Source of the DNA: Synergistaceae bacterium
GTDB lineage: Bacteria; Synergistota; Synergistia; Synergistales; Aminobacteriaceae
Direction of reading: 5' to 3'
Assembly: GCA_031272035.1 (NCBI GenBank)
Contig: JAISUO010000034.1
Location: 790-64,789 of the forward strand
DNA length: 64,000 nucleotides
Shown piece by piece: positions 1 to 54,801 of the stretch. The position numbers and the translations under genes are program-made. The notes under the pieces were generated by a model, which worked only from the letters and a program-made list of their open reading frames with translations, did no database searches and was not told where the DNA came from. Position 1 is the first letter of the stretch. Each line of letters starts with the position of its first letter.

Positions 1-79
1 CGCGCAAAAATTTGGGCCAGGGAGGAGCCCATCGTTCCCGCTCCCGCAATCGCCACGGTTTTTATTTTCGAACCTCGTT

Positions 80-1927
80 TCATACGTTTCCCCTCGTTTC
101 TTTAGACGCCCAGGCGTCTGTGATGTCCTCTTCATACTGCATCGACCAAAGTTTAAGATAGTATCCCCTTTTGCGCAGCAGTTCCCGATGTGTTCCTCTT
201 TCGATAATTTTACCGTCCCGCACCACGAGGATGAGGTCGGCGGCCCGGATCGTCGAGAGACGATGGGCGATCAGGAAGGAGGTCCGACCCTGCAGAACCT
301 TCGATATGGCGTTCTGGATCAGCCGTTCCGTTTCGGTGTCGATGGACGACGTGGCCTCGTCCAGGACGAAGATCCGCGGGTCGGCCAACAGAGCCCGGGC
401 AAAGGCGACGAGTTGTTTTTCCCCCGTGGAGAGCCGGTCGCCGCCTTCGCCCACGTCGCTGTCGAGCCCCTGAGGAAGTTTTCTCAAAACGGCGTCGGCT
501 GACGCCAGATGAATGGCCTCCAGAATTTGTTCGTCGGTGGCGTCGAGACGCCCGTAACGGACGTTGTCGCGGATCGTTCCCGAGAAAAGATGCGGCGTCT
601 GCAGCACGCAGCCGATGTTTGAATGCAGCCACAACTGTGAACGTTCCCGATAGTCCCGCCCGTCGATAAGGATTCTTCCGGAAGTGGGCTCGAAAAAGCG
701 GCAGGCCAGGTTGACCAGAGTTGACTTGCCCGCTCCGGTTTCTCCGACGATGGCCAGGCAGGTTCCTGCCGGTATGTCCAGGCTGAAGTGGGAAAGGACT
801 TCCTCGTCGCCGTCGGGATACTGAAAAGTCACGTCGTCGAAGCGAATGTCGCCAAAGAGGGGCTCCCAGTTCTCCCGTCGGGGGTGGAAGCTGTCGCCGT
901 ACTTTTCCGTGACCTCGGGGGAATCCGTGATTTCCGGTTTTCGCTTCAGCAGGGCATCGACGCGTTCGATGTTGGCTCCCGTGGCGGTGGCGTCCGAAAA
1001 GAATCGGGACAGGTGCTGTATGGGCTCAAGAATGTTGATGGCGTAGGAAATCAGCGCCGAAAGCGTTCCGAAGGCCATGGACCCCTTCAGGATGTACGAG
1101 GACCCCTGAGCCAGCATCATGGCCACGGCGAAGGACCCGAAAGCCATCATCACGGGCATGTAGATGGCACTCAGAGTGGCCGCTCGTATGGTCTCCCGGT
1201 ACATTTCCCCGGAGAGACCGGAGAACTCCACCGCGTTGAGGTCCTCGACCACGAGGGTTTTCGACGTGCGGGCTCCGAGAATCCCCTCGTTGAAAGCGCC
1301 CGTTATGAAGGAGTTCGCCCGGCGGACTTTTCGGTTGTGACGCAGGATTTTGTTCTGGAACCAGAACGTGATCAGCGCCAGGACCGGCAGAAGCCCCGTG
1401 AACCACAGGCCCAGCCTCAGGTCCAGCAGGAGCATCGAAACCACGGCGAAGACCACGTAAGAAAGCCCCCACATCAGATCGACGAGTCCCCAGGCCACCA
1501 GCATTCCAATTTTGTCGGTGTCCGAGAGAACCCGGGCCAGAATGTAACCCACCGGCGTCGTGTTGTAATAGGAAAGGGAGAGCGTCTGCAGGTGGTCGAA
1601 ACAGGCCTTCTTCAGGTCCCGGGAAAACCCCAGCTCCACTCGAATCGCCATTCTCGTGAAGATCGCCACGAACAGGAACTCCAGGAGGATCACGGCGGCT
1701 CCGGCCAGGGCCGCGGCGGGGATGCCTCTCGAAACTTTGGGAATGATGAAGGCGTCAATGAAATACTTCTGATATAAGGGGATGCAGACGTCGATCACCG
1801 AACAGGCGAGCATGAGGGACAGGGCTGCGGCCACCGTTCGACGGTAGGGTCGAAAGAAGGGGAGCATCGCGGCCCATACTCCCAGCCGAAAGGGTCGGTC
1901 GGAAAATTCGTCCTCATGGAACTGCAT
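80..1927 (-). CDS. ABC exporter, fused permease/ATP-binding protein
   Basis: 615-aa ORF with an N-terminal multi-TM region. NBD motifs are Walker A GETGAGKST, signature LSTGEKQ and Walker B IFVLDEATS. It overlaps the upstream partner gene by 14 nt. Confidence 0.9.
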   Translation of the reverse strand: MQFHEDEFSDRPFRLGVWAAMLPFFRPYRRTVAAALSLMLACSVIDVCIPLYQKYFIDAFIIPKVSRGIPAAALAGAAVILLEFLFVAIFTRMAIRVELGFSRDLKKACFDHLQTLSLSYYNTTPVGYILARVLSDTDKIGMLVAWGLVDLMWGLSYVVFAVVSMLLLDLRLGLWFTGLLPVLALITFWFQNKILRHNRKVRRANSFITGAFNEGILGARTSKTLVVEDLNAVEFSGLSGEMYRETIRAATLSAIYMPVMMAFGSFAVAMMLAQGSSYILKGSMAFGTLSALISYAINILEPIQHLSRFFSDATATGANIERVDALLKRKPEITDSPEVTEKYGDSFHPRRENWEPLFGDIRFDDVTFQYPDGDEEVLSHFSLDIPAGTCLAIVGETGAGKSTLVNLACRFFEPTSGRILIDGRDYRERSQLWLHSNIGCVLQTPHLFSGTIRDNVRYGRLDATDEQILEAIHLASADAVLRKLPQGLDSDVGEGGDRLSTGEKQLVAFARALLADPRIFVLDEATSSIDTETERLIQNAISKVLQGRTSFLIAHRLSTIRAADLILVVRDGKIIERGTHRELLRKRGYYLKLWSMQYEEDITDAWASKETRGNV

Positions 1928-3755
1928 GTGGAAACTCCATTTCTTCGGACAGTTCCTCTTCCGAGTTCCGCTGCATGTCGTGAATTCGCCTGTAAAACCC
2001 GTTGCGTTTCAGCAGCTCGGCGGGAGTGCCGATTTCCGCGATTTTACCGTTTTCCAGAACCATGATCCGGTCTGCGCCTGAAACAGAGGTGAGTCTGTGG
2101 GCAATGATCAGTGTGGTAACGCCTTTCGTTCTCTGATGGAGGCCGCTGCGGATCTTCGCGTCCGTTTCGGTGTCCACCGCGGAGAGGGAGTCGTCGAAAA
2201 TCATGATCGTCGGTTTTTTGAGCAGTGTTCGGGCAATGGCCACTCTCTGCTTCTGCCCGCCGGAAAGGGTGACGCCCCGTTCTCCCACCAGGGTGTCGTA
2301 TCCCAGCGAAAAATGTTCGATGGCCTCGTCCAGCCAGGCCGCCGCAGCGGCTTCGCGAATTTCCTCGACGGGGCAGTCCGGGCGGAGGGAGGCGATGTTC
2401 TCGCGGATGGTGCGGGAGTAGAGAAAGGGCTCCTGAAGCACAATGCCGATGTTTTCCCGCAGCCATGCGCGTTTGTATTTTCGAATGTCCGTCCCGCCGA
2501 TCCGGATTTCGCCTTCTCCTTCCTTCAGATCGTACAGCCGGCACAGGAGGTGGGCGATGGTGGTTTTGCCGGAGCCGGTCGCTCCCAGTATGCCCAGCGT
2601 TGTCCCCTGTTTTATCGTAAAGGAAAGGTCCCGCAGCACCGGCGCTCCGCCGTAGGAAAAATTGACGCGGTGGAATTCGATGTCGCCGCGAATGGGGGTA
2701 ACGAGGGCATCCGGCGGGTCGTCTTCGACCCGTGCGCGCAGAATTTCCAACAGACGAGAGAGGGAGACTCCGGTCCTTCCCGCTTCGGCGAGAACCCTTC
2801 CCAATCCGCGAACCGGCCAGATGATCATCGAGTTGTAGGTCAGAAATACGATGAATTCTCCCACCGTGACGTTTCCTTCGACGGCCTGCCAGGCTCCGGC
2901 GGCGCAGATCGTGACCATCTGGAGGCCGGTCAGCAGGTCCCCCAGCCCCCAGTAAAGACTGAGCAGGTTCCCCAGTTTCACCCAGAGGCCGGCGTAGCGG
3001 CGGTTTCGCAGGTCAAAGCGTTCGGTTTCGTAGAGCTCGCGTCCGAAGGCCCGCACCACCCGAACTCCCGTGAAATTCTCCTGAGCCGCGGCCAGAAGTT
3101 CGCCTTCCGCCTCGTCCGCCGCCTGAAAATGGGGAGCGGTCCTTCGCAGAAAGAAAAAGGACGTGAGAAAGGTCACGACCAGAAAGGCGAAGGAGAGAAG
3201 GGACAGGGCCACGTTCATGGAAAGCAGGATCGAAGTGGCGAAAACGATCAGAGCCAGAGTGCGGACCACCTCCACGACCTGGGCGGACATAAAGTTGTGG
3301 ACGACGTCCACGTCAGAGGTGCATCGCTGAACGATGTCTCCGGTTTGAATATCGATGTGCCAGGCGTAGGGCAGGTGCTGGATGTGGGTGTAGAGCGCGT
3401 CTCGAAGGCGCTTTGTCAGGCTCTCCGCGGCCATGGAGAGCGTCCGGCGGTGAATAAATCCCAGCAGCTCTCCGGCGACGGAGATTCCGGTCACCAGCAG
3501 AACGATGAACGCCCGATTTTCGCTCATGGCTTGAGCAAGCCCCGTGGTCAGACCGGAAAAGGCTCCCGAAAAATACGAGGTCGGAGGAACGTCTCCGATC
3601 ACGCTGTCCACCACGAAACGAATCGCCTGAGGCAGGAGGAAACCGCAGAACGTCGAGGCGAGCATGGCCGAGAAGGAGACGCAGTAAAGAGCTCTGCTTC
3701 CGGCGGAGATGTTCCACAGCAGAGCGAAGGGGCTTTTTGCCGCAACCGGAAACAT
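1914..3755 (-). CDS. ABC exporter, fused permease/ATP-binding protein (heterodimer partner)
   Basis: 613-aa ORF with Walker A GATGSGKTT, signature LSGGQKQR and Walker B IMIFDDSLSAVD. Tandem with 80..1927. Confidence 0.9.
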   Translation of the reverse strand: MFPVAAKSPFALLWNISAGSRALYCVSFSAMLASTFCGFLLPQAIRFVVDSVIGDVPPTSYFSGAFSGLTTGLAQAMSENRAFIVLLVTGISVAGELLGFIHRRTLSMAAESLTKRLRDALYTHIQHLPYAWHIDIQTGDIVQRCTSDVDVVHNFMSAQVVEVVRTLALIVFATSILLSMNVALSLLSFAFLVVTFLTSFFFLRRTAPHFQAADEAEGELLAAAQENFTGVRVVRAFGRELYETERFDLRNRRYAGLWVKLGNLLSLYWGLGDLLTGLQMVTICAAGAWQAVEGNVTVGEFIVFLTYNSMIIWPVRGLGRVLAEAGRTGVSLSRLLEILRARVEDDPPDALVTPIRGDIEFHRVNFSYGGAPVLRDLSFTIKQGTTLGILGATGSGKTTIAHLLCRLYDLKEGEGEIRIGGTDIRKYKRAWLRENIGIVLQEPFLYSRTIRENIASLRPDCPVEEIREAAAAAWLDEAIEHFSLGYDTLVGERGVTLSGGQKQRVAIARTLLKKPTIMIFDDSLSAVDTETDAKIRSGLHQRTKGVTTLIIAHRLTSVSGADRIMVLENGKIAEIGTPAELLKRNGFYRRIHDMQRNSEEELSEEMEFPHAVP

Positions 3756-3759
3756 CGGT

Positions 3760-4473
3760 TTATACCTTTCCCCCGTCCCACAGCTCCTGCAGGGTAACGA
3801 AGCGGTATCCCCGTTCGCGGAGGGCCTTTACGATTCCCGGCAGGGCCCGGACGGTTTCGGGGACCCCCGAATGCATCAGGATCACGGCGCCGGGCCGGAC
3901 GTCTCCCAGCACCTGGGCCGTGATGGTTTCCGCGTTCCGTCCCGTGTAGTCGGCGGTGTTCACGCTCCAGAGCCCCAGCTTCATGTTCATTTGCCGCATG
4001 GCTTTGAAGATCACGAGGCCGAATCCCCCTCCGGGCGGTCGCATGAAGCGGGGAGTCCGGATGTTCAGCCTGTCCATGACTTCATTGCATCGCTCCGTCT
4101 CGCGGATGACCTTTTCCAGCCACAGGGTGTAGAGTTTGGGGTGTGTGTAGCTGTGGTTCTCGATCATATTGCCGGATTGGTCGATGGCCCGGGTGATCTC
4201 TTCGTAACGTTCGGCGAACTTGCCCACCAGGAAGAACGTTCCCGGAGTCCGGAGTTCCCGCAGAACCGTCAGCAGCTCATGTACGCCGTTCTCCCGCGGG
4301 CCGTCGTCGAAGGTCAGAACCACCTCCCAGACGAAGGGATTGCCCGAGGCGATTCCCCATCTTCCTCTTTCATCGGAAAGAGGCCCCCACTGAACGCACA
4401 GAAAAAGACACAGCAACGCGATTGTCAGGCTCCGTTGACTTTTGCGCAGATATTTCGGCGTGGAAATTTTCAT
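3760..4473 (-). CDS. Polysaccharide deacetylase (NodB/CE4 domain), secreted
   Basis: Motifs TFDDGP and HSYTHP. I chose the internal ATG at 4473 (MKISTPKYL..., signal-like LTIALLCLFL), preceded by GAAAGGA. The ORF track extends to 4590. Confidence 0.8.
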   Translation of the reverse strand: MKISTPKYLRKSQRSLTIALLCLFLCVQWGPLSDERGRWGIASGNPFVWEVVLTFDDGPRENGVHELLTVLRELRTPGTFFLVGKFAERYEEITRAIDQSGNMIENHSYTHPKLYTLWLEKVIRETERCNEVMDRLNIRTPRFMRPPGGGFGLVIFKAMRQMNMKLGLWSVNTADYTGRNAETITAQVLGDVRPGAVILMHSGVPETVRALPGIVKALRERGYRFVTLQELWDGGKV

Positions 4474-4743
4474 CGCGATCCTTTCGATTTGTATGAATTT
4501 CGGCTGCACAGATTCCCGGCCTGCATGAATTTTGAATCCTCTGTCTTCCTGCCCCCATGACGCGGATGCATCGATGATATAATGAAACACTATAATGTGT
4601 TTTTGAGAGTTGCGCCAGAGGGAAATATATTTCGAGGCAAAATAATCAAAATGGGTTTGAAGTCAGTGATTGATATTAATGTTAAATTAAAATCAATTTA
4701 AAGCTAAAATGAGTTTGTTAAAGAAGGGCATGTAAAGAGGAAC

Positions 4744-5277
4744 ATGGCGCTGCAAAACGCAAGACCGGAGTGGGATGTGTATTTTTTGACGATCGCGATG
4801 ATGGCCGCAATGCGAAGCACCTGTCTCCGCAGGCGGGTGGGGGCCGTAATCGTTCGGGACAGGCAGATCGTCAGCACGGGATACAATGGGGCGCCGAGAG
4901 GCACAGCGCATTCTTTCGACGTGGGGTGTCTGAGGGATATTTTGGGGATCCCTTCGGGGGAACGTCAGGAGATGTGCCGGGGGTCCCACGCCGAGGGAAA
5001 CGCCATTGCCCAGGCGGCCCGCATGGGAATCGCCACGGACGGAGGAACCCTTTACTGTACTCATGAGCCCTGTTCCATGTGTACGAAATCCATATTGAAC
5101 GCGGGGCTTGTCCGGGTGGTCTACATGGTGCCCTATCCAGACAGGCTGGCGGTGGAGCTGCGGGAGGAAACGGACGTGATTTTCGAGGCCATGGCCCCGG
5201 AAAAAGTGGAGGAAGCGCGGGAATGGATGAGGCAGGCGGCTTCCTTCACGCCTCAGTTGAACAGAAGAAGCGAATAA
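4744..5277 (+). CDS. dCMP deaminase / ComEB-type cytidine-deoxycytidylate deaminase
   Basis: Zinc-binding motifs HAEGNAI and PCSMC. 177 aa. Confidence 0.85.
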   Translation: MALQNARPEWDVYFLTIAMMAAMRSTCLRRRVGAVIVRDRQIVSTGYNGAPRGTAHSFDVGCLRDILGIPSGERQEMCRGSHAEGNAIAQAARMGIATDGGTLYCTHEPCSMCTKSILNAGLVRVVYMVPYPDRLAVELREETDVIFEAMAPEKVEEAREWMRQAASFTPQLNRRSE

Positions 5278-5373
5278 ATAAAAGAAGCGAAGCCAAAAAA
5301 TAAAGATAAAATTATAAAGAGAAAAATAAAGAAGTCAGAAGGTGTCCGCGCGACCCCGAAGGAGGAAACGGAT

Positions 5374-5949
5374 TTGGTTCCCACAAGAGATGAAGCTTTG
5401 TCGCTTTTAAAAAAATATAACCAGGATGAAAGCCATATCAAACACGCCTTTGCCGTAGAGGGGGTCATGCGCCATTTTGCGCGGCGGATGGGCGGCGACG
5501 AGTCCCTGTGGGGAGTGGTGGGCATCCTCCACGACATCGACTGGGAGCGGACCATGAGCGATCCCGCCCGTCACTGCAACCTTGCGCCGGAGCTGCTTCG
5601 GGAGGCGGGAATTGACGAGGGGATCATCCACGCGGTCCAGTCTCACGGATATGAGATTTGCTCGGACGTGGAGCCGGAAAACGATATGGAAAAAGTTCTT
5701 TTCGCCGTGGACGAACTGACGGGGCTTGTGATCACGGCCGGACTCGTCCGCCCGTCGAAGTCCCTCGCGGACCTGGAAGTAAAGTCCGTCAAAAAGAAAT
5801 GGAAGGATAAAACCTTTGCCCGGGGCGTGGATCGCGAAGTCATTCAGAAGGGGGCCGAACGAATGGGAATTTCTCTGGACGAGCTGATCGAGCAGACCAT
5901 CGAGGCCCTGCGCCCCATCGAACGGGAGATCGGGCTGCCGGGGGCCTGA
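5374..5949 (+). CDS. HD-domain hydrolase
   Basis: The H...HD pattern (KHAFAVEG...GILHDID) is typical of HD/HDIG phosphohydrolases. TTG start preceded by AAGGAGGAAAC. Confidence 0.7.
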   Translation: MVPTRDEALSLLKKYNQDESHIKHAFAVEGVMRHFARRMGGDESLWGVVGILHDIDWERTMSDPARHCNLAPELLREAGIDEGIIHAVQSHGYEICSDVEPENDMEKVLFAVDELTGLVITAGLVRPSKSLADLEVKSVKKKWKDKTFARGVDREVIQKGAERMGISLDELIEQTIEALRPIEREIGLPGA

Positions 5950-6183
5950 GCGCGGCGGCGGCGACGAAAACTTCTTCTCCTGTCCTGTCTTCTCTTGCCT
6001 GCTCTTCTTTATTGTCAGTAGCTTTGCTCTTGTTCGTATTTTGACAGCCTGTTAGGCTTTGGATGAAGAGTGACTTTTGACTGTAGAATTATAGAAATTG
6101 CAAAGTTGGTTTTACCAGGAATAACACGAGCAATTAAGAGCAATTAAGAAAAGAAAAAAGTTTGTTGGAAGGAGAAGTTTCCC

Positions 6184-6822
6184 ATGCCGATTAAAGTGAT
6201 TTTAGCCGATGATCATCCTTTGACGAGAGCGGGAATCGCGGAATTTTTGAGGAGAGAAAGTTCGCTCGAACTCGTAGGAGAAGCGGAAGACGGTCTGAAA
6301 GCGTGGCAGCAGATTCAGGACCTCAAACCCGATGTGGCGCTTTTGGACATTCGGATGCCGGGCATGGATGGAGTGTCTGTCGTGCAGAAGGTCAAGGAAG
6401 CGGGGCTTCAGACGGCCACGATCATGCTGACCTCTTACGATGCGCAGCAGTATGTCATGGCCTCTCTGCGTGCGGGGGCCCGGGGGTTCGTCCTGAAGAC
6501 CGTCACGCCCAAGGAACTGACGACGGCGATTGCCACGGTGGCCCGGGGAGGGCTTTATCTCGATCCGGAAGTCGCCTCGGTCATGGGAGAAAGAGATTTT
6601 GATCCGGAACAACTTTCCACCCGGGAGAGAGAGGTTCTCGTCCTGGCGGCGAAAGGACTTTCCAGCAAGGAGGTTGCGGGCAGGCTTTTCATCAGCGAGC
6701 GGACCGTTCAGACCCACCTCGCTTCCATTTACGACAAACTGGGGTCCAAGAATAAAACGGAGGCGCTGCTTCTGGCTCTGAAGTATGGAGTGGTCACTTT
6801 GGAGGAGCTGTTGGAAGATTAA
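6184..6822 (+). CDS. Response regulator, NarL/LuxR family
   Basis: Receiver domain (ILADDHPL...DVALLDIRMPGMDG) plus a C-terminal LuxR HTH (LSTREREVL...SEKEVAGRLFISERTVQTHL). Confidence 0.9.
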   Translation: MPIKVILADDHPLTRAGIAEFLRRESSLELVGEAEDGLKAWQQIQDLKPDVALLDIRMPGMDGVSVVQKVKEAGLQTATIMLTSYDAQQYVMASLRAGARGFVLKTVTPKELTTAIATVARGGLYLDPEVASVMGERDFDPEQLSTREREVLVLAAKGLSSKEVAGRLFISERTVQTHLASIYDKLGSKNKTEALLLALKYGVVTLEELLED

Positions 6823-46561: not shown

Positions 46562-49500
46562 TTATTTTTTGATCTGCGCCTCCAGCTTTGGAATGAACGC
46601 CTCCACTTCCGGGTTCTTATGATATTTGAGGCTTTCCGTGTAACGGTTCAGCGCGTCCGCATATTTCCTGTTTCTGTAGAGATCGTTGGCCTCGTGCACC
46701 AGTTTGTTGGCCTTTTCCATATTCTTCAGGGCGACCTCCAGATGGTCGGCGAAATCCCTGACCTGCGGATTGTGGCTGAGTTTGTAGCTTTCTCTGTACT
46801 TGTCCAGCGCCTCCGCGTATTTTTTCTCTCTGTAGAGAGTGTTGCCGTCGCGGAAAAGAGCATCGGCCTGAACCAGGTCGATGGAGGAAACCTCTGTCGA
46901 CGTCTTTTCCTCGGCTTTCTTCGGGTAGACGTCTTCGGACAGGTCGTCGCTGGCGCTTTCGGAGGGAATTACGACGTTGGAAGCCGGCAGGGCGGATACC
47001 GGCGGAGACAGAGTCGCCTCAAGTTTCTTTATTTTCTCGGACAGATCCACGTCGTCCGGTGTTTTCTGAAGGGCGCGTCTGTAGCGTTCCAGGGCGTCTT
47101 TGGGCCTTTTCTGCTTCAGAAGATTGTCCCCTTCTTTGGTCAGAGCCTGAGCCGCGGTGGCATCCGCGTTTCTCACGTAGATGTCCGCCTTTTCGTCGTA
47201 ATCGTATTTCAGACTTTCACGATACTTCTCCGTCGCGTCCGCAGGTCTTTTCTTTTTGATCAGAGCCTCGGCGTCCTTTCGCAGTCTCGCTCCCTCGGAC
47301 TGAGCGAAACGTTTCGTTTCCTGCTGAAGGATTTTTTCCAGTTCTTCGTCTCCTCGAAGGAGAAGGCTTTCTCTGTATTTCTCCAGCGCCTCGGAGGTTT
47401 TTTTGTTCTTCAGTAGGGAATCTCCCTCCCTGCGCAGGGCGTCGGCGCGCTCCTTCACCACTTTTTCCTCCTCGCTCCGCTCCATGATAAGGGCCATATA
47501 AGCCGTGAGCTGAGGATCGGGAAAGAGTTTCCGGCTCTGTTCATAGAGCTTCAGCGCGTCAGAGTATCGCTTTTTATCGATCAGAGCGTCGGCCTTCGCC
47601 CGCAGGTCCCCCGCCTTCGCCAGAGTCGTTTTTTCTTCAAGAATTTCGCGGTTCAGTCGCGCCACGTCTTTGCTGGTCATGTCGTTTTTTTCGAGCAGAA
47701 GGCTGTCCTGGAGACGAAGCAGCGCTTCAATTTTACGTCCCTGTTCCAGCAGCGCCCCTCCCTCCGCACGCAGTCGGGCCGCCAGATTTGCGCTGGCGCG
47801 GACTTTTTCCTCCGCTTCCTTCAGGGCAAGTTTCATTTCCGTCGTTATTGCCCCGGGTCGCAGAGCTTCCGCCTCCTGCGCCCGGCTTTCGGCTTCTTCA
47901 TATTCGCCGGTGGAGAGCAGCCAGGTGCTTTCCGAGAGAAGGCGAGCAGAAAGTTCCATTTTTTCGAAGTCTTCCTTCATTTGTTTCACGCCGAAGGTCA
48001 CGTCGGGGTCGCCGGGGTCGAGGACGGAAGCCTGAACCGCCGTTTCCAGGGCTTTCAGGTGCCGGTCTTCTTTCCACAGGTCCAGGGCCTTCAGCCAGGT
48101 CTCCCAGGCAAGCGCGCGTCGGGCGTCCCGGGTGACGTCGCTTTTGTTCACGATGATCGGTATGCTGAGTTTCCCTTCTCCAAGAACGATGCCCCGGGCA
48201 TCCTTCGCAACGGCCGTCAGTTTCGCGGTGCCGGGAAGCACTCGGCGGACCAGGGCTGCGTTGTCGCCGGAGGCCAGAATGGAGGAGTCCGAATCCACCG
48301 TCCAGAGCCAGGAGACCGCTCCGTCCGGCAGAGGCGAGAGACTGGCCTGAACTTCGATGGGAGTTTCCGTGACAAATTCGTGAACTTCCTCCAGACGTTT
48401 CTGGTTTGCGTTCCACAGGAGAGCGTTTTTTCTGCCCTCGTTTGCGGTGAGGCTGACGCTCCAGTCCTCTGCGGTGAGAGAAAGGGTTCGCTGCAGAGAG
48501 ACCGTATCCGTTCCCTTTCGCAGGACGGAAAGTTCAACCGTCACCGGCAGATCGTTCGCCGGATAAAAGGAATAGGTCTTTCCCTCGGAGCCGGGATTTC
48601 CGTCCCGGATGTTCCCCTGAACCTTCCAGCGGAACTCCGCGTCTTCGATGTTTCCGTTGTCGACGCGAATAAGGGTGCGCTGTCCTCGTCGGGGCAGGGA
48701 CGGCACGGCCCTCAGGACTGGAGGATTTGCCTGCAGAGCGGCGAGCCAGGCCGCTTCGATTCTGCTCTTTTGGACTTTGCTCAGAAGCTGGGCGGATTCA
48801 TCGCTGGAGGCCAGAGCCAGAGAAGCGGTCAGTTTTTCCTCGGCCAGTTCAAGGCGCGACTCCCTTTCCAGAATGACGGCCTCCCTGTAAAGTTCTCCGG
48901 CCCGGGCCAGAGTGATGGCATCTTCGCTGACGCGTCCGCGCAACACCTGAATCGAACGGAGAACGTTGTCGTCAATCCAGACGCTCTCGCTTTCGATGAA
49001 AAGATCGAGGGCTTTTTCCAGATTCCCCTCGGCTTCGGCTTTGCGGGCCTCACCGGCCAGTCCCGCGGCCCGACCGATTTTTTCATTTCTCGTTTTGATG
49101 GTCTGTTCAAGGCGCTGTATGAGTGAGAAATTTTCCTTCCCAGGGAAAATCGACTCGCTTCTGCGGGCAAGGGCCAGGGCTTCGTCCAGTCGGCCCTGTT
49201 TTTCGGCTTCTCTGGCCTGTTCCGCGAGAATTTTCGCTTCCGTTCGATGTTTGTTTCGCGTTTCGATGCGCCGGGCCAGCTGCGTCATACGGGTCTGAGT
49301 GTCGGATTCCCGACGTACGTTTTGAGCGCGATGGTAGCGGTTCATGGCCTCTTCCAGACGACCTTCAACCTCCAGACGCTCCGCTTCCTTCACCAGCGCC
49401 GCGACCTGGGAGATCTGAGCCTGAATGGCGGCAATGTGAGTTTTCACCCGTTCCCTCGACCGCTGGGAGACGGCGTTGGACCAAAGTCCGGCCGCCTGGG

Positions 49501-51058
49501 AGTATTTCTCCAGAGCCTGCTCCAGAAGCTGCACGTTTCCCTGATTTTCCAGCCCGCGAGCCTCCAGTTCCGCGGCCTCAGCGGTCAGGCGTTCCGCCTC
49601 GTTTCTGCGGCTTTGCTGAAGCTGCAGGGCGGAACGAATCCGTTCCAGGTCGTCGCCGGTTTCCGGAAGGGAGTAAATTTCACGGGATTCGGTCATTTTG
49701 GAGAGCGCGTTTTCCAGATCTCCCTGAGATTCCAGGATCAGCGCGATGTCCCGCACGGTTTTCGCTTCTTCCATTTTTCTCCGGCGAGCCCTGAAACGCC
49801 CCTCCACGTCCATCCGGGCGGCATGTACGAGGGGGTCGGAGAAGAGAAGCAGGCTTTCTTCGTATTTCTTCAGGGCGCTTTCGAACTCATCTTTTTCCGC
49901 CAGGGCATCGGCCTCCTTCGCCAGTGCCGCGGCGCTTTCCCGGGCCTTCTTCGTCCGGTTCAGAATTCCTTCCAGATCTTCAATGCTTTGCGCCGTCCGG
50001 GAGTCGGGATAGAGGGCCTGGGCCTGACGATACTGCATAAGGGCGTCCTCCGGTCTGCCGTCGCGCCACAGAGCCGCCGCGCTGGAGCCGAGAGCCAGTG
50101 CGTTGAGGTAATTGTCCCTTGCCTGACTGAGTCTGTCCAGATCCTTACGCAGAGCGCTTTCGTCCATTCCCGCCAGGATCAGTTCTTCCGAGGCCAGACG
50201 GGCAAGGCGCAGGGCGTTTTCCGCCTCGTCTCTTTTCTGCGCCAGAGCCAGGGCCTTCTGCCACTGCTCCCAGCCCTTCTGCAGCCTGAGGCTGCGCTTC
50301 AGGTCTTCGGCGGAGAATTGAACATCGAAGCTGGTTCGGGCATCTCCCAGTTCGATGCCCTTTTCGTCGAGGATACGGACGGAAAGAACGCCGACTCCCG
50401 TTGTTTCTCGATAAACGGAAACGCGGTTATCCTTTTGGGAAGTGAGAGTGACGCCCTCGCCGGGGCTCCAGACCCAACGGAGATTCTTCGTATCCCGGGA
50501 AGGGCTGAGGACGGCTTCCAGAGAGATGGGGCTTTCCGTGGCGAGTCCCTGGAGCTCCTTCAGTCTTTTCGATTCGTCGTCCCAGATTTTGATTTTTTCG
50601 TCTCCGGAGGACGGGACAGTACGAAGGGTGACGGTGTATCTTTGGGGTATGACGGTCACGGAGGCGTTGTCGACGGTCTCTCCCCCCACCCGATTCCACA
50701 GGGTCGCGGAAATCGTCGTGGAACCCTCTCGGGCTTCCCAGCACACTTCTCTTTCGGAGAGACTGCGAATTCCCTCCGCCTCCCCCCGCCAGTCCCAGTA
50801 AACCCCCTGTCGGGCGGGGTTGAAGTCCGGAATGGCGGCGGTAATCGTTACGGTCTCTCCCCGAAAAGGACGCTCGGGAACGACTTTGAGCACAAATCCT
50901 CCTTTTGAGGATTTGATTTCTTCCGCCCCTTCCGCCCCGGGCAGAAGAGCTCCCGCGGGAAGGAAACCCGTGCAGAGAAGAAGAAAGAGGGTCAACTGTA
51001 AAAAAAGGCGCGATAATGAAGAAAGAAGAGGTAAAAATACAAAAGAAATTTTTTTCAT
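46562..51058 (-). CDS. Giant secreted protein: two (Ig-like pair + W-rich helix) modules, each followed by long TPR/Sel1-like helical repeats
   Basis: The ORF is 1530 aa in the track. The probable start is the ATG at 51058 (MKKISFVFLPLL..., signal peptide). Recurrent repeats of the type ALEKYRESLLL, ALKLYEQSRKLFPDP and ALNRYTESLKYHKNPEVEAF. Paralogous to 52588..54546. Confidence 0.75.
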   Translation of the reverse strand: MKKISFVFLPLLSSLSRLFLQLTLFLLLCTGFLPAGALLPGAEGAEEIKSSKGGFVLKVVPERPFRGETVTITAAIPDFNPARQGVYWDWRGEAEGIRSLSEREVCWEAREGSTTISATLWNRVGGETVDNASVTVIPQRYTVTLRTVPSSGDEKIKIWDDESKRLKELQGLATESPISLEAVLSPSRDTKNLRWVWSPGEGVTLTSQKDNRVSVYRETTGVGVLSVRILDEKGIELGDARTSFDVQFSAEDLKRSLRLQKGWEQWQKALALAQKRDEAENALRLARLASEELILAGMDESALRKDLDRLSQARDNYLNALALGSSAAALWRDGRPEDALMQYRQAQALYPDSRTAQSIEDLEGILNRTKKARESAAALAKEADALAEKDEFESALKKYEESLLLFSDPLVHAARMDVEGRFRARRRKMEEAKTVRDIALILESQGDLENALSKMTESREIYSLPETGDDLERIRSALQLQQSRRNEAERLTAEAAELEARGLENQGNVQLLEQALEKYSQAAGLWSNAVSQRSRERVKTHIAAIQAQISQVAALVKEAERLEVEGRLEEAMNRYHRAQNVRRESDTQTRMTQLARRIETRNKHRTEAKILAEQAREAEKQGRLDEALALARRSESIFPGKENFSLIQRLEQTIKTRNEKIGRAAGLAGEARKAEAEGNLEKALDLFIESESVWIDDNVLRSIQVLRGRVSEDAITLARAGELYREAVILERESRLELAEEKLTASLALASSDESAQLLSKVQKSRIEAAWLAALQANPPVLRAVPSLPRRGQRTLIRVDNGNIEDAEFRWKVQGNIRDGNPGSEGKTYSFYPANDLPVTVELSVLRKGTDTVSLQRTLSLTAEDWSVSLTANEGRKNALLWNANQKRLEEVHEFVTETPIEVQASLSPLPDGAVSWLWTVDSDSSILASGDNAALVRRVLPGTAKLTAVAKDARGIVLGEGKLSIPIIVNKSDVTRDARRALAWETWLKALDLWKEDRHLKALETAVQASVLDPGDPDVTFGVKQMKEDFEKMELSARLLSESTWLLSTGEYEEAESRAQEAEALRPGAITTEMKLALKEAEEKVRASANLAARLRAEGGALLEQGRKIEALLRLQDSLLLEKNDMTSKDVARLNREILEEKTTLAKAGDLRAKADALIDKKRYSDALKLYEQSRKLFPDPQLTAYMALIMERSEEEKVVKERADALRREGDSLLKNKKTSEALEKYRESLLLRGDEELEKILQQETKRFAQSEGARLRKDAEALIKKKRPADATEKYRESLKYDYDEKADIYVRNADATAAQALTKEGDNLLKQKRPKDALERYRRALQKTPDDVDLSEKIKKLEATLSPPVSALPASNVVIPSESASDDLSEDVYPKKAEEKTSTEVSSIDLVQADALFRDGNTLYREKKYAEALDKYRESYKLSHNPQVRDFADHLEVALKNMEKANKLVHEANDLYRNRKYADALNRYTESLKYHKNPEVEAFIPKLEAQIKK

Positions 51059-51172
51059 TTTCTCGAGTTTCCTTTCAATATTCCCTTCGGTTTTTTCAAA
51101 AGTATCACAATTGTTTCTGCCGAAAGCGCAGTCCGAAGGAGTACAGGGGAACACTTTGGCCTGGTGGAGTTG

Positions 51173-51679
51173 TCAGGCGGGGTTTAAAATGGAAGGATCT
51201 GCGGTGAAAAGGGTCAATTCTCCACTTTCATCCCACCTGAGCAGCAGAGTCAAAGGGTCTCGAATTTGAACGCTGGTCCGTACGGGGCGGAGGTTGGCTC
51301 CCTCGCGCTCCAGAATGAAAAACGTAAAGCGGTCCCTGTCCATGGTGCGGAATTCCTCTCTCAGGGCGACCAGGTTGAGGGGAAGGACGGTGATTTTCGT
51401 CCCCGCGTCAAGGATGGGCTCCCAGATTCTCCGGTCGGTCGCGGAAAGCAGCTTCGACAGGGCGATCGCCGCAGGTGGAGTCATCCATTCAGCATCGGTT
51501 TTTTCAACTGAAGTCCGTTCAGTCGGAGCCTGTTCAGTTGCAGTCCGTTCAGTTGAAGTTTGTTCCGGAGCCTGTTCGGCCGGAGTCCCTTCAGTGGGGA
51601 AAGAAAGCGTCTCCGGTTCGAGATGCACCTCTCCCGTTTTCAGATAATCTTTGAGGCTGGGTCTCCTCTTTCTAGTCAT
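51173..51679 (-). CDS. Hypothetical ParA-partner-like protein (basic N-terminus, T/E/Q/A/P-rich disordered centre, globular C-terminus)
   Basis: The ATG at 51679 overlaps the ParA-like stop by 8 nt. The N-terminus is MTRKRRPSLKDYLK, followed by the repeats TERTATEQAPTERTS. I recognise no ParB/HTH motif. Confidence 0.5.
   Translation of the reverse strand: MTRKRRPSLKDYLKTGEVHLEPETLSFPTEGTPAEQAPEQTSTERTATEQAPTERTSVEKTDAEWMTPPAAIALSKLLSATDRRIWEPILDAGTKITVLPLNLVALREEFRTMDRDRFTFFILEREGANLRPVRTSVQIRDPLTLLLRWDESGELTLFTADPSILNPA
51505..51600. repeat. Imperfect intragenic tandem repeats
   Basis: GTCCGTTCAGT at 51513 and 51543; CGGAGCCTGTTC at 51524 and 51566. They encode the TERT / EQAP repeats of the partner protein. 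Confidence 0.8.
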
Positions 51680-52439
51680 GGATATTGCACCTCCTGAGAA
51701 ATTCACGGGCGACCCGTTCGTAATCCCGGGCGCCGTTGCTCGAGAGGTCGTAGGAAAAGATGGAGACTCCGAGACTGCCGGCCTCCGTCAGGCTGATATT
51801 TTGACGAATGTAGGCCTCGAAAAGCAGAGAACCGAAGAAACTGCGCACCTCTTTGGCCACCTCCCGATAGATGAATACGTTGGGGCTGTGTCGGGTAAAC
51901 AGCACTCCCAGCAGAGAGAGGTCGGGGTTCAGGCGTTCTCTGAAAAGAGGAATGGCCTCGTTCAGGAGCTTTAACCCCGCCAGGCTGTAAAATCCTCCGT
52001 CCATGGGGATGACGAGATGCTTCGCTGCCGCCAGAACGTTGCGCGTGAAAATCCCCAGCTGAGGGGGACTGTCGAAAAAAAGGAAATCGTAGCGGTCCGG
52101 ATCGATGTTTTCGACGGCTTCCTTCAGAAGGGTGTCCCTTCCGATCTGTCCCTCCGGGTGAAGTTCCACCATGACCAGATCCAGAGTCCCTGGAACAATG
52201 TCTACTTCCTCCCGGCGCAGGACGACTTCGTCCCATCTGGCGGAGCCCGTCAGAAAATCGACGATATGAAGCTGCTCCGGGGTCACTTCAATGCCGAAGC
52301 TGGTGCTGAGGTTGGCCTGGGGATCCATATCCATAACCGCCACTCGTTTGTGAAGGCGTGCAAGAGCAACAGCCATATTCTGACACGCCGTCGTTTTTCC
52401 AACGCCGCCCTTCAGATTGCAAAACCCGACGGTTATCAT
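51672..52439 (-). CDS. ParA/MinD-family P-loop ATPase (orphan, no ParB)
   Basis: Deviant Walker A NLKGGVGKTT, A' motif VAVMDMDPQ, Walker B DFLFFDSPP. The ATG at 52439 lies 8 nt after GGGGGA. Confidence 0.9.
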   Translation of the reverse strand: MITVGFCNLKGGVGKTTACQNMAVALARLHKRVAVMDMDPQANLSTSFGIEVTPEQLHIVDFLTGSARWDEVVLRREEVDIVPGTLDLVMVELHPEGQIGRDTLLKEAVENIDPDRYDFLFFDSPPQLGIFTRNVLAAAKHLVIPMDGGFYSLAGLKLLNEAIPLFRERLNPDLSLLGVLFTRHSPNVFIYREVAKEVRSFFGSLLFEAYIRQNISLTEAGSLGVSIFSYDLSSNGARDYERVAREFLRRCNIHD

Positions 52440-52587
52440 GCACAATTCCCCCTTTAAGCAGGAGAATACCATAATATACGGATATAAAAAGCCGTAGTCT
52501 TTATTGTTTTGCTCTCTTCAGGCCTCTTTTTTCAGATTTTCTGTTTCCAGGTACAATAAAGAAAAACCTGGCAGTAACAAAAAAACG

Positions 52588-54546
52588 CTACCTGGGATTC
52601 GACGCGGCCGTTGCCGGTCCCGCCGCGGCCGTCGGGACGATGTCGGCGCTCCCGAGCGTGCTTTCGATATGCCGCGTGAAGTTTTCGACCTCGGCATTGG
52701 CGTGAACGGAGAGGCTTTCCCTGTATTTCGCCAGAGCTTCGGCGTATCTGCCCTCATTATAAAGGCTGTTTGCCTCTTTTATAAGGACGTTGGCTTTCAG
52801 GACGGATTCGTACTCCCGGAGGGATGTTTCCACCCGACTGATCCAGTCCGAGAGCCGGGGATCCCTGGATATGGCGTAACTCTTGCGGTAGGAGTCCAAA
52901 GCCTCCCTGTATTTGCCCTGCTTGTACAGAGCGTGGCCTTCCTGCAAAAGGCGCATGGCATCCGCCTGAGTCCCTATTCCGAAATCCTCCGGAGCGCGGA
53001 CGACCTGCGTCGAGGACGATTTCACGGTCTTTTCCAGAGCGGCGATCTGTTTGGCCAGAGCGTCGTCCGGCCACAGAGCCTGGCTTTCCTTGAAACGAAC
53101 CAGGGCCTGCGCGTTCTGATTTTTCTTCTGAAGGTCGGCGGCCTCTCGGCGTAACGCGGCGGCTCGGGTCCGACGTTCCTTGATGGCCTCTTCCAGATCC
53201 TGGGCGTGACTCTCCACACTGGATACCGCTTCCAGTTTCAGGCTGTCTCTGTATTTCTCCAGAGCTTCCGTGAGCCTGCCCTCCGCTTCCAGTTTTTCTC
53301 CCTCCGAGGCAAGGGAGTTCGCCTGGGCGATGGAGGCCAGGCGCTTTTCGATGCGGTCGGCCCTTTGCGCCACGCCATCGTCGGGAACGAGGGCCATCGT
53401 TTCCCTGTAATATTTCAGGGCATCTTCAAAGAGGTTTTCCTGGTCGTAAGCGGCGGCCGTGTCCTTCAGCCACTCCGCTTTCTGACGCCGGATGCGCGCC
53501 TCGTCGATTTCCACCTCCAGCGCCCGGATGTTGCTCTCGATGTCTTCCAGGGGCCAGGCGGCGTAGGCCCGGCGCATAACCTTGAGGGCCTCCACCGGCT
53601 TGTGTTCATTTTGCAGGGAGGCGGCGTCGGCGCTGAGTTTCCGGGAACGTTCCACCCGGTTGAAGTTGGCGGTCATGCTCCTGAGACCGTCGGAAATTTC
53701 CAGGGTCTCGGGGTCGTTCTCCGCCGCTTCTCTGGCCCGGACGATGGCGTTATCGAAGTTTTTCGCGTCCCACATGTCCAGTGCCTCGGTCCACTGCCCC
53801 CAGGCTTTTCTGCGTCGAATGGAATCGTCCACTCTCGATCGGGCTATGGGAACGTTCACGCTTTTTTCACCATGTCCCAGCACCGTTCCCGAAGCCGTGG
53901 AAACCACGACGGAAAGCACCGCATCGCCGATTTCGTTCCGCACCACCGTGACCTCGTTTTTCTCTCCGCCTTCCCGAATGGCCGTGGAGGCATCGGTGTT
54001 CCAGCGGCATTGGATTCCATCCTTGAATGTGGGGGTCAGGGCCACGGTGAAACGGATGGGTTCTCCGGCGATCAGCCCTTCGGCGGGGACGTCCTGCTTT
54101 TTGTTCACGTCCCACAGCAGGAAGGGATCGGGTTTGATCATGACCACCTCCACGTTGAACTCTTTGGCTTTTACGGAGATGTTTGCCGTCCCCAGCGAAT
54201 CGCCATCGGGTCCGGAGGCGGAAACGGCCGCGATCACCGGCTCGGTGTCCACCGGTGTGAAACGGCACTCAAGCCCTCCTTTACGAAGAGAGATCGGTTT
54301 GGCGTTTCCCTCGAAGGACCAGTCGTAAACGACGCCCTCCTGTCCCAAAGCGTCCCCCTTCAGGGAAAGAACCACCTCGCAGCCGATGTAGGCCTCTTCC
54401 TGCTGTTCGATGCGAAGAGCCTCAGCCCCCTCGGTGGAAACGGGAGCCGCAATCAACAAAGCCGCGGCCAGAAGCAGGGACGTCTTTGAGAAGAATTTCA
54501 AAAACAGGTTCTTTATCATTTTTTCTGTCTTTTTTGCGCGTTTCAC
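52588..54546 (-). CDS. Secreted Ig-like pair + TPR/Sel1-like repeat protein, paralogue of 46562..51058
   Basis: The GTG at 54546 follows GGAAGG. Signal peptide KRAKKTEKMIKNLFLKFFSKTSLLLAAALLIAAPVS. Same module order and same C-terminal repeat type (ALDSYRKSYAISRDPRLSDW, ALAKYRESLSVHANAEVENF). Confidence 0.75.
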   Translation of the reverse strand: MKRAKKTEKMIKNLFLKFFSKTSLLLAAALLIAAPVSTEGAEALRIEQQEEAYIGCEVVLSLKGDALGQEGVVYDWSFEGNAKPISLRKGGLECRFTPVDTEPVIAAVSASGPDGDSLGTANISVKAKEFNVEVVMIKPDPFLLWDVNKKQDVPAEGLIAGEPIRFTVALTPTFKDGIQCRWNTDASTAIREGGEKNEVTVVRNEIGDAVLSVVVSTASGTVLGHGEKSVNVPIARSRVDDSIRRRKAWGQWTEALDMWDAKNFDNAIVRAREAAENDPETLEISDGLRSMTANFNRVERSRKLSADAASLQNEHKPVEALKVMRRAYAAWPLEDIESNIRALEVEIDEARIRRQKAEWLKDTAAAYDQENLFEDALKYYRETMALVPDDGVAQRADRIEKRLASIAQANSLASEGEKLEAEGRLTEALEKYRDSLKLEAVSSVESHAQDLEEAIKERRTRAAALRREAADLQKKNQNAQALVRFKESQALWPDDALAKQIAALEKTVKSSSTQVVRAPEDFGIGTQADAMRLLQEGHALYKQGKYREALDSYRKSYAISRDPRLSDWISRVETSLREYESVLKANVLIKEANSLYNEGRYAEALAKYRESLSVHANAEVENFTRHIESTLGSADIVPTAAAGPATAASNPR

Positions 54547-54801
54547 TGTGATACCTTCCTTTCGGGTAATCAGGGATAAGCCTTGCACGGGTTATTCCTC
54601 CCCAGTTTTGATTTGTCCAAAAAAAATACCGAATTTTAGGAGACCATTTAGGACGATTTTACGATATTTCGAAAAGAAAATCCAATTTCTCTGTGGTAAA
54701 GTATGCGCGTTGTTTTTCGAATGCGCTTGGGCGACGTGTCTGGAGGCAGGTTGCAGTCCGGAGACGATGGGGTCGCTTCACACAGGGAGGTTTGGAGAAG
54801 G

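What the first reader, a model, noticed from the sequence alone, without database searches (positions are those of the whole stretch)
51173..52439. ParA-like ATPase with a McdB/ParG-style partner: basic N-terminal peptide, disordered repeat region
The ATPase has the deviant Walker A with the signature lysine (KGGVGKT) and no N-terminal HTH extension. The translationally coupled partner begins MTRKRRPSLKDYLK. A short Lys/Arg-rich N-terminus is the element that stimulates ATP hydrolysis in many ParA partners (ParB, ParG, MinE-like, McdB). It continues with an acidic T/E/Q/A/P low-complexity stretch and a C-terminal region of about 90 aa that is probably folded. I see no DNA-binding motif, so the partner may tether a protein cargo rather than DNA.
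Basis: inference. Interest (0 to 1): 0.6.

Follow-up and report, generated by a model that had tools for sequence, protein, structure and literature searches.

The report
Orphan ParA ATPase with new adaptor
A gut Synergistaceae bacterium carries a two-gene unit, a ParA-type positioning ATPase and a small, never-described partner (docking peptide, floppy tether, folded end domain of unknown fold); it looks like a new cargo-positioning system whose cargo is unknown and which occurs only in motile, chemotactic members of the phylum.

Summary
On the minus strand, a 255-aa ParA/Soj-type ATPase (51672-52439, KGGVGKT, no N-terminal extension) overlaps by 8 nt a 168-aa protein (51173-51679).

The partner belongs to a small family restricted to Synergistota (41 representatives among 1.84 billion proteins). 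It matches no Pfam, NCBIfam, PADLOC, PDB-sequence or Foldseek entry.

It has three parts:
- a near-invariant basic N-terminal peptide, (K/R)(K/R)xRPSLKDYLxTG;
- a disordered A/E/P/S-rich linker of 9 to about 380 aa;
- an acidic C-terminal domain of about 100 aa, confidently folded (pLDDT >90).

The pair is gained and lost as a unit and coexists with canonical Soj-ParB, MinD and FlhG. In one genus the C-terminal domain is fused to ParA and the N-peptide is lost. This fusion argues that the peptide's job is to tie the domain to ParA.

Microcompartments are excluded as cargo. The flanking secreted Ig/TPR genes are not obligatory partners.

All 55 partner-positive genomes (of 151 scanned) have CheW, and none of the 55 CheW-negative genomes has the partner. 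This is a weak lead towards chemotaxis or motility. No biochemistry was tested.

The parts
51672..52439 (-). Orphan ParA/Soj-type ATPase, 255 aa.
   Evidence: Pfam AAA_31 scores 1e-41. The best PDB match is M. xanthus ParA 8RAY at 148 bits. It belongs to a monophyletic orphan clade on a long stem next to the Synergistota Soj proteins.
52386..52409 (-). Deviant Walker A, KGGVGKTT (residues 11-18), with signature lysine K11.
   Evidence: Read from the sequence and invariant in the alignment of orthologues.
51672..51679 (-). 8-nt overlap between the end of parA and the start of the partner gene (ATGACTAG); translational coupling.
   Evidence: Seen. The same 8-nt overlap occurs in L001, L003 and L005.
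51173..51679 (-). Partner (adaptor) gene, 168 aa plus stop.
   Evidence: 78 clusters found, and every source name given is Synergistaceae. It has no Pfam, NCBIfam or PADLOC hit. Only 41 representatives appear among 1.84 billion proteins.
51626..51679 (-). N-terminal docking peptide, MTRKRRPSLKDYLKTGEV (residues 1-18). It is basic, and residues 9-15 are predicted to form an amphipathic helix.
   Evidence: R6, P7, L9, K10 and L13 are conserved at 90% or more, and T15 and G16 are invariant. The motif is present in 73 of 78 clusters, with a median net charge of +4. The peptide is absent from all 14 fused proteins read.
51488..51625 (-). Disordered acidic linker (residues about 19-64), rich in T/E/Q/A/P.
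   Evidence: pLDDT is below 50. In the family the linker ranges from 9 to 121 aa, reaches about 380 aa in G036, and is 53-147 aa in the fused forms.
51498..51585 (.). Degenerate tandem DNA repeat (period 15/30 nt) that encodes the TERTA/TEQAP peptide repeats of the linker.
   Evidence: TRF scores 80 and 47; the repeat finder family D1.
51176..51487 (-). Folded C-terminal domain (residues 65-168), the presumed cargo-binding module. Conserved motifs are DRxxWEPIL, LREDFRTMDRxRFTxYIL, VRTSVQIREP and KWDExG.
   Evidence: pLDDT is above 90. Foldseek finds nothing with E below 0.1 in the PDB or BFVD. The median pI is 5.4.
52588..54588 (-). Upstream gene for a secreted Ig-like/TPR protein ('TPR660'). 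It is a context gene, not an obligatory partner.
   Evidence: It has a signal peptide and TPR repeats. It sits upstream of ParA in clade-A genera. It also occurs without the pair, and the pair occurs without it.
46562..51154 (-). Downstream gene for a secreted Ig-like/TPR protein ('TPR1530'), a tandem-duplicated paralogue of TPR660. The true start is probably MKKISF near 51058. Context gene.
   Evidence: blastp against TPR660 gives 7e-50. In genera g9 and g14 it directly abuts TPR660 with no ParA pair between them.
52498..52562 (.). Perfect 10-nt inverted repeat (TCTTTATTGT / ACAATAAAGA, 45 nt apart) in the 148-nt gap upstream of parA. Its role is unknown; it could be an operator or an RNA hairpin.
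   Evidence: Pair I8. Conservation was not tested.

Best explanation
This is a two-gene ParA-adaptor positioning module specific to Synergistota.

**Proposed mechanism (inferred).** The ATP-bound ParA dimer sits on a matrix, most likely the nucleoid, although its DNA-contact residues are only partly kept. The partner docks on the dimer through its basic amphipathic N-terminal peptide, which probably also triggers ATP hydrolysis. The partner's acidic, folded C-terminal domain holds a non-DNA cargo. The variable acidic P/E/A-rich linker acts as a flexible spacer.

**What is shown.**
- The gene pair, its three-part architecture and its conservation.
- Strict co-inheritance of the two genes.
- Independence from ParABS, MinD and FlhG.
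- A natural ParA-linker-domain fusion that dispenses with the peptide.

**What is inferred.** The physical docking, the ATPase stimulation, the matrix and the nature of the cargo.
For: **ParA identity and catalytic motifs.**

**Partner architecture.**
- The N-peptide is near-invariant across three GTDB families.
- The linker varies in length and charge.
- The C-terminal domain folds with pLDDT above 90.

**Link between the two genes.**
- The pair is always adjacent and overlapping.
- It is lost as a unit in G116, G120, G030 and G054.
- In genus g2, the domain matches inside an open frame of 403-503 aa in 23 of the 24 matching genomes. All 14 such frames read are ParA-linker-domain fusions without the N-peptide.
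- G036, sister to the fused clade, still has separate genes and keeps the peptide.

**Separate from chromosome partition.** Canonical Soj-ParB sits elsewhere in G050, G071 and G072.

**Peptide analogy.** The ParB peptide of the phylum (KRALGKGLxALL) is analogous but different. [quoted passage not shown]

**Arguments against a DNA cargo.**
- The C-terminal domain is acidic.
- No DNA-binding family or fold matches it.
- There are no iterated repeats around the genes.
Against: - No interaction, ATPase or localisation data exist, and no multimer model could be run.
- Three of the four DNA-contact lysines of H. pylori Soj are not conserved: the canonical PRNVR is IRQNIS in the whole clade (PMC6393308). 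There is also no C-terminal membrane-targeting helix. The matrix is therefore unknown.
- The fused forms lack the supposed activating peptide. Stimulated hydrolysis is therefore either not essential or provided in another way.
- No cargo was identified.
- The module has been lost repeatedly, so it is dispensable.
Confidence: 0.6

Rival explanations
1. The cargo is chemotaxis- or motility-related, for example chemoreceptor arrays. The pair would then be a functional analogue of ParC/ParP or PpfA/TlpT that uses a different array-binding domain. This is a more specific version of the best explanation.
For: - All 55 partner-positive genomes have CheW, and none of the 55 CheW-negative genomes has the partner.
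- In family f4, only genus g31 has CheW and only g31 has the pair.
- In genus g6, the two genomes without the pair (G116, G120) are the two without CheW and FliG.
- Chemotaxis genes lie near the pair in some lineages. These are CheV 1.8 kb and an MCP 3.3 kb away in G137, CheW 3.1 kb and an MCP 2.2 kb away in G128, an MCP about 3.6 kb away in g3/g6, and CheV 7-9 kb away in all three g28 genomes.
- ParP has the same layout: an N-terminal ATPase-binding part, a long proline-rich linker and a C-terminal cargo domain (PMC5706961).
- FlhF/FlhG already serve the flagellum in this genome.
Against: - The co-distribution is confounded by phylogeny, with roughly two or three independent contrasts. It cannot separate chemotaxis from flagella or from any other trait of motile cells.
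- About 40 CheW-positive genomes lack the pair, so it is not required for chemotaxis.
- In most genera (g1, g2, g7, g8, g10, g11, g12, g31) no che gene lies within 10 kb. By my rough estimate, three independent neighbourhood events in about ten contexts is near the chance rate.
- The C-terminal domain is not CheW-like (hhalign probability 0.07%; no PF01584 hit).
Confidence: 0.25
2. The pair serves the neighbouring secreted Ig/TPR proteins. It would place or regulate an envelope-spanning assembly, in the way BcsQ/BcsR or TadZ serve secretion machines that include TPR components.
For: - TPR660 lies immediately upstream of ParA in all clade-A genera, with an ATGA-type overlap in genus g2, while the wider flanks differ.
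- In genus g31 a different exported 261-aa protein is tightly linked upstream.
Against: - TPR660 and TPR1530 carry signal peptides, so they are not cytoplasmic, and the partner has no membrane segment.
- The pair occurs without TPR660 in g3, g6, g11, g28 and g31.
- TPR660 occurs without the pair in g5, g9, g14, g15 and some g2 genomes. In g9 and g14 the two TPR genes abut directly.
Confidence: 0.1
3. It is a cryptic DNA-partition cassette of the type Ib kind: a small ParA plus a small centromere-binding protein with a flexible activating tail. It would act on the chromosome or on an integrated element, and it could compensate for the missing ParABS in this genome.
For: - The gene layout is the same as ParF/ParG.
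- ParB_N and a canonical Soj were not found in the window's genome, which is 98% complete, nor in most g2 genomes.
- The orphan ParA is most similar to the chromosomal Soj proteins.
Against: - The C-terminal domain is acidic (median pI 5.4; 4.05 in a fused form).
- It is not a ribbon-helix-helix and matches no known DNA-binding fold.
- There are no repeat arrays near the genes.
- The pair coexists with complete Soj-ParB in g3, g6, g8, g28 and g31.
- Key Soj DNA-contact residues are lost.
- The pair is chromosomal and mostly vertically inherited.
Confidence: 0.07

Closest known systems
ParC/ParP chemotaxis-array positioning system (Vibrio, Pseudomonas)
   Same: An orphan ParA-type ATPase with a dedicated partner. 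The partner is built as an N-terminal ATPase-binding part, a long Pro-rich linker and a C-terminal cargo domain (PMC5706961). The pair studied here is found only in chemotactic genomes.
   Different: The C-terminal domain is not a CheW/SH3-like AIF domain. The genes do not sit inside a che operon. The ATPase-binding part is a peptide of about 18 aa.
McdA/McdB carboxysome positioning system
   Same: A ParA-type ATPase with a small, lineage-specific adaptor that has no Pfam family. The adaptor has a charged, disordered N-terminus, and the cargo is protein rather than DNA.
   Different: No coiled coil is predicted. The C-terminus is a folded domain rather than a disordered tail. BMC shell genes were not found in this genome, nor in genera g2, g6 and g28. 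This ParA keeps the signature lysine.
Type Ib plasmid partition, ParF/ParG (TP228) and relatives
   Same: A small ParA without an N-terminal HTH, and a small downstream partner with a flexible basic N-terminal tail that contacts the ATPase (cited).
   Different: The partner's folded domain is not a ribbon-helix-helix and is acidic. No centromere repeats are present. The locus is chromosomal, lineage-restricted and mostly vertically inherited.
Chromosomal ParA(Soj)/ParB(Spo0J)
   Same: These are the closest ATPase relatives: 148 bits to M. xanthus ParA and 41-45% identity to the Synergistota Soj proteins. The partner peptide, like the ParB peptide, is a short basic amphipathic helix.
   Different: There is no ParB_N/CTPase domain and no parS. 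The genes are not at the gidB-soj-spo0J locus. PRNVR is replaced by IRQNIS. The pair coexists with true Soj-ParB.
MinD/MinE and PomZ/PomXY
   Same: A deviant-Walker-A ATPase regulated by a short N-terminal basic peptide or helix of a small partner.
   Different: ParA has no membrane-targeting helix. MinCDE-type genes are present separately in this genome. The partner is not homologous to MinE or PomX.

Membership tests
ParA/MinD (deviant Walker A) ATPase superfamily | Deviant Walker A xKGGxGK[ST] with the signature lysine. | tested here: met
   NLKGGVGKTT with K11 and K16, invariant in the orthologues.
ParA/MinD (deviant Walker A) ATPase superfamily | Motif 2/Walker A' aspartates (DxDPQ), Walker B, and matches to the family profiles. 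| tested here: met
   MDMDPQ and FFDSPP are present. AAA_31 scores 143 bits against a cut-off of 27, and CbiA 69 bits against 25.4.
Chromosomal Soj/ParA of ParABS | Encoded next to ParB (ParB_N CTPase) and acting on parS. | tested here: not met
   The downstream gene has no ParB_N domain. True soj-parB loci lie elsewhere in G050, G071, G072 and G116.
Chromosomal Soj/ParA of ParABS | Conserved basic residues for non-specific DNA binding (HpSoj K199, K227, K230, K247; the PRNVR motif). | tested here: not met
   Only the K199 equivalent (R192) is kept. K227, K230 and K247 align to Q, S and S, and the whole clade has IRQNIS (residues from PMC6393308). Different DNA-binding residues are not excluded.
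Chromosomal Soj/ParA of ParABS | Reaches the NCBIfam ParA partition equivalog cut-off. | tested here: not met
   NF041546 scores 81 bits against a cut-off of 180.
McdB (carboxysome adaptor) | A central coiled-coil/oligomerisation region flanked by disordered regions, and association with BMC/carboxysome genes. | tested here: not met
   No long helix is predicted, and the C-terminus is a folded alpha/beta domain. PF00936 was not found in this genome.
ParG-type (type Ib) centromere-binding protein | A ribbon-helix-helix dimerisation and DNA-binding domain, with iterated centromere repeats near the operon. | tested here: not met
   The fold order is alpha-alpha-beta-alpha-beta4. No RHH or other DNA-binding match was found. 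There are no intergenic repeat arrays.
ParG-type (type Ib) centromere-binding protein | A flexible basic N-terminal tail that contacts and activates the ATPase. | tested here: inconclusive
   A conserved basic N-peptide is present. Contact and activation cannot be tested with these tools.
ParP (chemotaxis-array adaptor) | A C-terminal CheW/SH3-like AIF domain. | tested here: not met
   No PF01584 hit in 25 members at E up to 1. hhalign against a CheW alignment gives a probability of 0.07%.
ParP (chemotaxis-array adaptor) | An N-terminal ATPase-interaction part separated from the cargo domain by a long Pro-rich linker. | tested here: met
   The same three-part layout is seen, with a linker rich in A, E, P and S. 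The ParP layout comes from PMC5706961. This shows an analogy only.
ComFB-domain ParA partners (a lead from earlier notes of this scan) | A ComFB (cyclic-dinucleotide receptor) domain at the C-terminus. | tested here: not met
   No ComFB or any other Pfam hit in 25 family members at E up to 1, and no PDB fold match.

The most novel reading that the evidence does not exclude
Motile Synergistota use a previously unknown ParA-based system to place a chemotaxis- or motility-related structure. Its adaptor has a new fold. In one whole genus the ATPase and the adaptor domain have merged into a single 'self-adapted' ParA that no longer needs, or has, an activating peptide. That would be a natural experiment separating tethering from ATPase stimulation in ParA-type positioning.
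Probability: 0.25. Interest if true: 0.7.

Novelty: new variant of a known kind. Interest (0 to 1): 0.5.

Why it matters
Orphan ParA/MinD ATPases are common, but for most of them neither the adaptor nor the cargo is known. This case gives a clean, conserved adaptor family with a sharply defined docking peptide. Its linker ranges from 9 to about 380 residues. Its end domain has a confident predicted fold with no match in the PDB or BFVD.

The family also offers natural variants that bear on how these systems work. Fused forms (peptide lost) and unfused forms (peptide kept) occur as sister lineages. That allows a direct test of whether the N-terminal peptide acts mainly as a tether or as an ATPase trigger. 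Finding the cargo would add a new entry to the short list of things bacteria position with ParA-type ATPases, in a poorly studied gut phylum.

Tried and rejected
**Homology searches for the partner, all negative.**
- Pfam and NCBIfam.
- Pfam on 25 family members at E up to 1.
- PADLOC.
- A profile search against PDB sequences, which returned only spurious hits to designed repeat proteins.
- Foldseek against the PDB and BFVD, with no hit below E = 0.1.
- A profile search of 1.84 billion representatives, which found only the family itself.

**CheW-like domain.** Rejected by hhalign.

**ParB replacement.** Rejected, because canonical Soj-ParB coexists with the pair in many genomes.

**Microcompartment cargo.** Rejected, because no BMC shell genes were found in this genome or in genera g2, g6 and g28.

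**Obligatory link to the Ig/TPR genes.** Rejected. The exported 261-aa protein upstream of the pair in g31 is unrelated to TPR660.

**Centromere-like repeats.** None found.

**Promoter and terminator scan.** Uninformative.

**Neighbourhood enrichment for che genes.** Three independent lineages out of about ten is close to chance by my rough estimate.

**Literature.** A search for ParA-like ATPases in Synergistetes found nothing relevant.

**Tools.** A second structure job was not used, because the tool reports no inter-domain contacts and so could not show docking.
Full report
**What is there.**

Four genes lie on the minus strand of the window:
- a 666-aa secreted Ig-like/TPR protein (52588-54588);
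- a 255-aa ParA-type ATPase (51672-52439);
- a 168-aa protein (51173-51679) whose ATG overlaps the end of parA by 8 nt;
- a 1530-aa paralogue of the first gene (46562-51154).

The ATPase matches Pfam AAA_31 (1e-41) and CbiA. Its closest solved structures are M. xanthus ParA 8RAY (148 bits) and the Thermus and Helicobacter Soj proteins. It carries the deviant Walker A with the signature lysine, the DxDPQ motif and Walker B. It has no N-terminal extension.

**The partner is a real, conserved but narrowly distributed protein family.**
- A word-indexed search found 78 clusters. Every source name given is Synergistaceae, and all are labelled hypothetical.
- An exhaustive profile search of 1.84 billion representatives found only 41 proteins, all with the same architecture.
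- No Pfam, NCBIfam or PADLOC family matches, and no PDB sequence does.

The alignment shows three parts.
- **N-terminal peptide.** The sequence M-x-(K/R)-(K/R)-x-R-P-S-L-K-D-Y-L-x-T-G-x-V is near-invariant. It is present in 73 of 78 clusters with a median net charge of +4.
- **Linker.** It is rich in A, E, P and S. Its length is 9-121 aa in these clusters and about 380 aa in genome G036. In the window it is encoded by a degenerate 15/30-nt tandem repeat.
- **C-terminal domain.** It is about 100 aa long, with invariant W86, the motif LREDFRTMDRxRFTxYIL, VRTSVQIREP and KWDExG.

AlphaFold2 with this alignment gives pLDDT below 50 for most of residues 21-62 and above 90 for 65-165. The order of elements is alpha-alpha-beta-alpha-beta-beta-beta-beta, and there is a short helix at residues 9-15 (L9, Y12 and L13 on one face, K10 and K14 on the other). 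Foldseek finds nothing below E = 0.1 in the PDB or BFVD. The domain is acidic, with a median pI of 5.4.

**The two genes are one functional unit.**
- ParA and the partner are adjacent and overlapping in every locus with enough contig to see both. This holds across three GTDB families: f1, genus g31 of f4, and genus g28 of f7.
- Genomes without the partner also lack an orthologue of this ParA. Their best hits are canonical Soj at 41-45% identity.
- In genus g2 the C-terminal domain matched in 24 of 27 genomes. In 23 of these the match lies inside an open frame of 403-503 aa.
- All 14 such frames that I read are ParA, then a 53-147-aa linker (acidic in most), then the C-terminal domain. None contains the N-peptide motif.
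- G036 is sister to the fused clade in the ParA tree. It still has separate genes, and its partner keeps the peptide KDRPSLRGYLSTG.

When the domain is covalently tied to ParA the peptide becomes dispensable. This is the strongest available evidence that the peptide's job is to attach the domain to ParA.

**It is not the chromosome partition system.**
- In complete or near-complete genomes G050, G071 and G072, a canonical soj-parB pair (Soj 205-211 bits to AAA_31) lies elsewhere.
- ParB N-termini in the phylum read KRALGKGLxALL. They are analogous to the partner's peptide but distinct from it. That is what is expected for co-resident ParA systems that must not cross-talk (bioRxiv 10.1101/2022.06.09.495121; 10.1101/2025.03.14.642875).
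- The orphan ParAs form one clade with 100/100 support on a long stem next to the Synergistota Soj proteins.
- The window's own genome also has MinD, FlhG and a second ParA-like gene, but no ParB_N and no canonical Soj were found at 98% completeness.
- Of the four DNA-contact lysines of H. pylori Soj (PMC6393308), only the first is conserved. The canonical PRNVR is IRQNIS throughout the clade. There is no membrane-targeting helix. The surface on which this ParA works is therefore undetermined.

**What is the cargo?**

*DNA is unlikely.* The domain is acidic, matches no DNA-binding fold, and no repeat arrays flank the genes.

*Microcompartments are excluded.* BMC shell genes were not found in this genome or in genera g2, g6 and g28.

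*The flanking Ig/TPR proteins are not obligatory partners.* They are exported. TPR660 occurs without the pair: in g9 and g14 the two TPR genes abut directly, and it also stands alone in g5, g15 and some g2 genomes. The pair in turn occurs without TPR660 in g3, g6, g11, g28 and g31. The tight TPR660-ParA adjacency in clade A still hints at some link.

*One lead emerged.*
- All 55 partner-positive genomes of the 151 sampled have CheW, and none of the 55 CheW-negative genomes has the partner.
- In family f4 only genus g31 has either.
- In genus g6 the two genomes without the pair are exactly the two without CheW, and they also lack FliG.
- CheV, CheW or MCP genes lie within 2-9 kb of the pair in g13, g3/g6 and g28.

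This lead is weak. It rests on roughly two or three independent contrasts. It cannot separate chemotaxis from flagella. About 40 CheW-positive genomes lack the pair. By my rough estimate the neighbourhood signal is near the chance rate. The domain is not CheW-like.

ParP, the chemotaxis-array adaptor of ParC, has the same three-part layout (PMC5706961).

**Verdict.**

It remains untested biochemically.
- **Mechanism.** This is a ParA-adaptor positioning module.
- **Membership.** The ATPase belongs to the ParA/MinD superfamily but fails the tests for a ParABS Soj. The partner belongs to no known adaptor family.

I class it as a new variant of a known kind.

The scan's notes on this window (the four-gene locus and the linker repeats) agree with what I found. 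Notes from other genomes describe ParA partners with a docking peptide near flagellar genes whose end domain is ComFB. I tested for ComFB here and it is not present.

Noticed in passing
Whole genome G000 (the window is C56:790-64789): No ParB_N domain and no canonical Soj were found in this genome, which is 98% complete. The same holds for most genomes of genus g2 and for g12 and g13, whereas most other Synergistota have gidB-soj-parB. How these bacteria segregate their chromosomes is open.
   Followed up: partly
L007 (G000:C77:5493-8137), about 558-1490 on the minus strand; also L025 4760-5560 (-): There is a second, divergent ParA-like ATPase of about 306 aa (MKVVSVINNKGGVGKTT) on another contig. 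In G040 (genus g2) a shorter homologue of 266 aa lies directly downstream of the ParA-domain fusion gene. Its partner and role are unknown.
   Followed up: no
L032 (G054:C10) 15-6461 and L033 (G139:C124) 108-6536: In genera g9 and g14 the TPR660 and TPR1530 orthologues are directly adjacent (52-nt and 16-nt gaps), with no ParA pair between them. The two-gene unit was therefore cleanly deleted there, or inserted elsewhere.
   Followed up: partly
L028 6419-7204 (-) and L030 3699-4484 (+) (genus g31): An exported 261-aa protein with no Pfam hit, unrelated to TPR660, lies immediately upstream of the ParA pair. This is a second, independent case of an exported protein gene directly upstream of this ParA (a few nt from, or overlapping, its start).
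   Followed up: partly
ParA tree: The orphan ParA of genus g31 (family f4) nests inside family f1's clade B, next to g11 (support 87/85; the branch joining this group to g3/g6 has 83/82). This suggests lateral transfer of the pair between families. g31 is also the only f4 genus in the sample with CheW.
   Followed up: no
L001 4700-12408; L044 1-5300; L039 and L041 (genera g3 and g6): In clade B the pair sits in a conserved block. Upstream and divergent are a dCache MCP, a FlK-like thioesterase and a PAS-GGDEF-HD-GYP protein. Downstream and convergent is a PAS-GGDEF-EAL protein. c-di-GMP enzymes therefore sit on both sides.
   Followed up: partly
window 52498-52562: A perfect 10-nt inverted repeat with a 45-nt spacer lies in the 148-nt gap between TPR660 and parA. 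It could be an operator or an intercistronic RNA hairpin.
   Followed up: no
Orphan ParA clade, residues 8 and 20 (window 52416-52418 and 52380-52382): Two cysteines flank the Walker A (F-C-N-L-KGGVGKTT-A-C-Q-N). Both are kept in all 21 aligned clade members and absent from the three reference Soj/ParA sequences aligned with them (M. xanthus, Thermus, Helicobacter). Their significance is unknown.
   Followed up: no
G120 (genus g6): This 98%-complete genome lacks the orphan pair, CheW and FliG. It also has no Soj closer than 32% identity.
   Followed up: no
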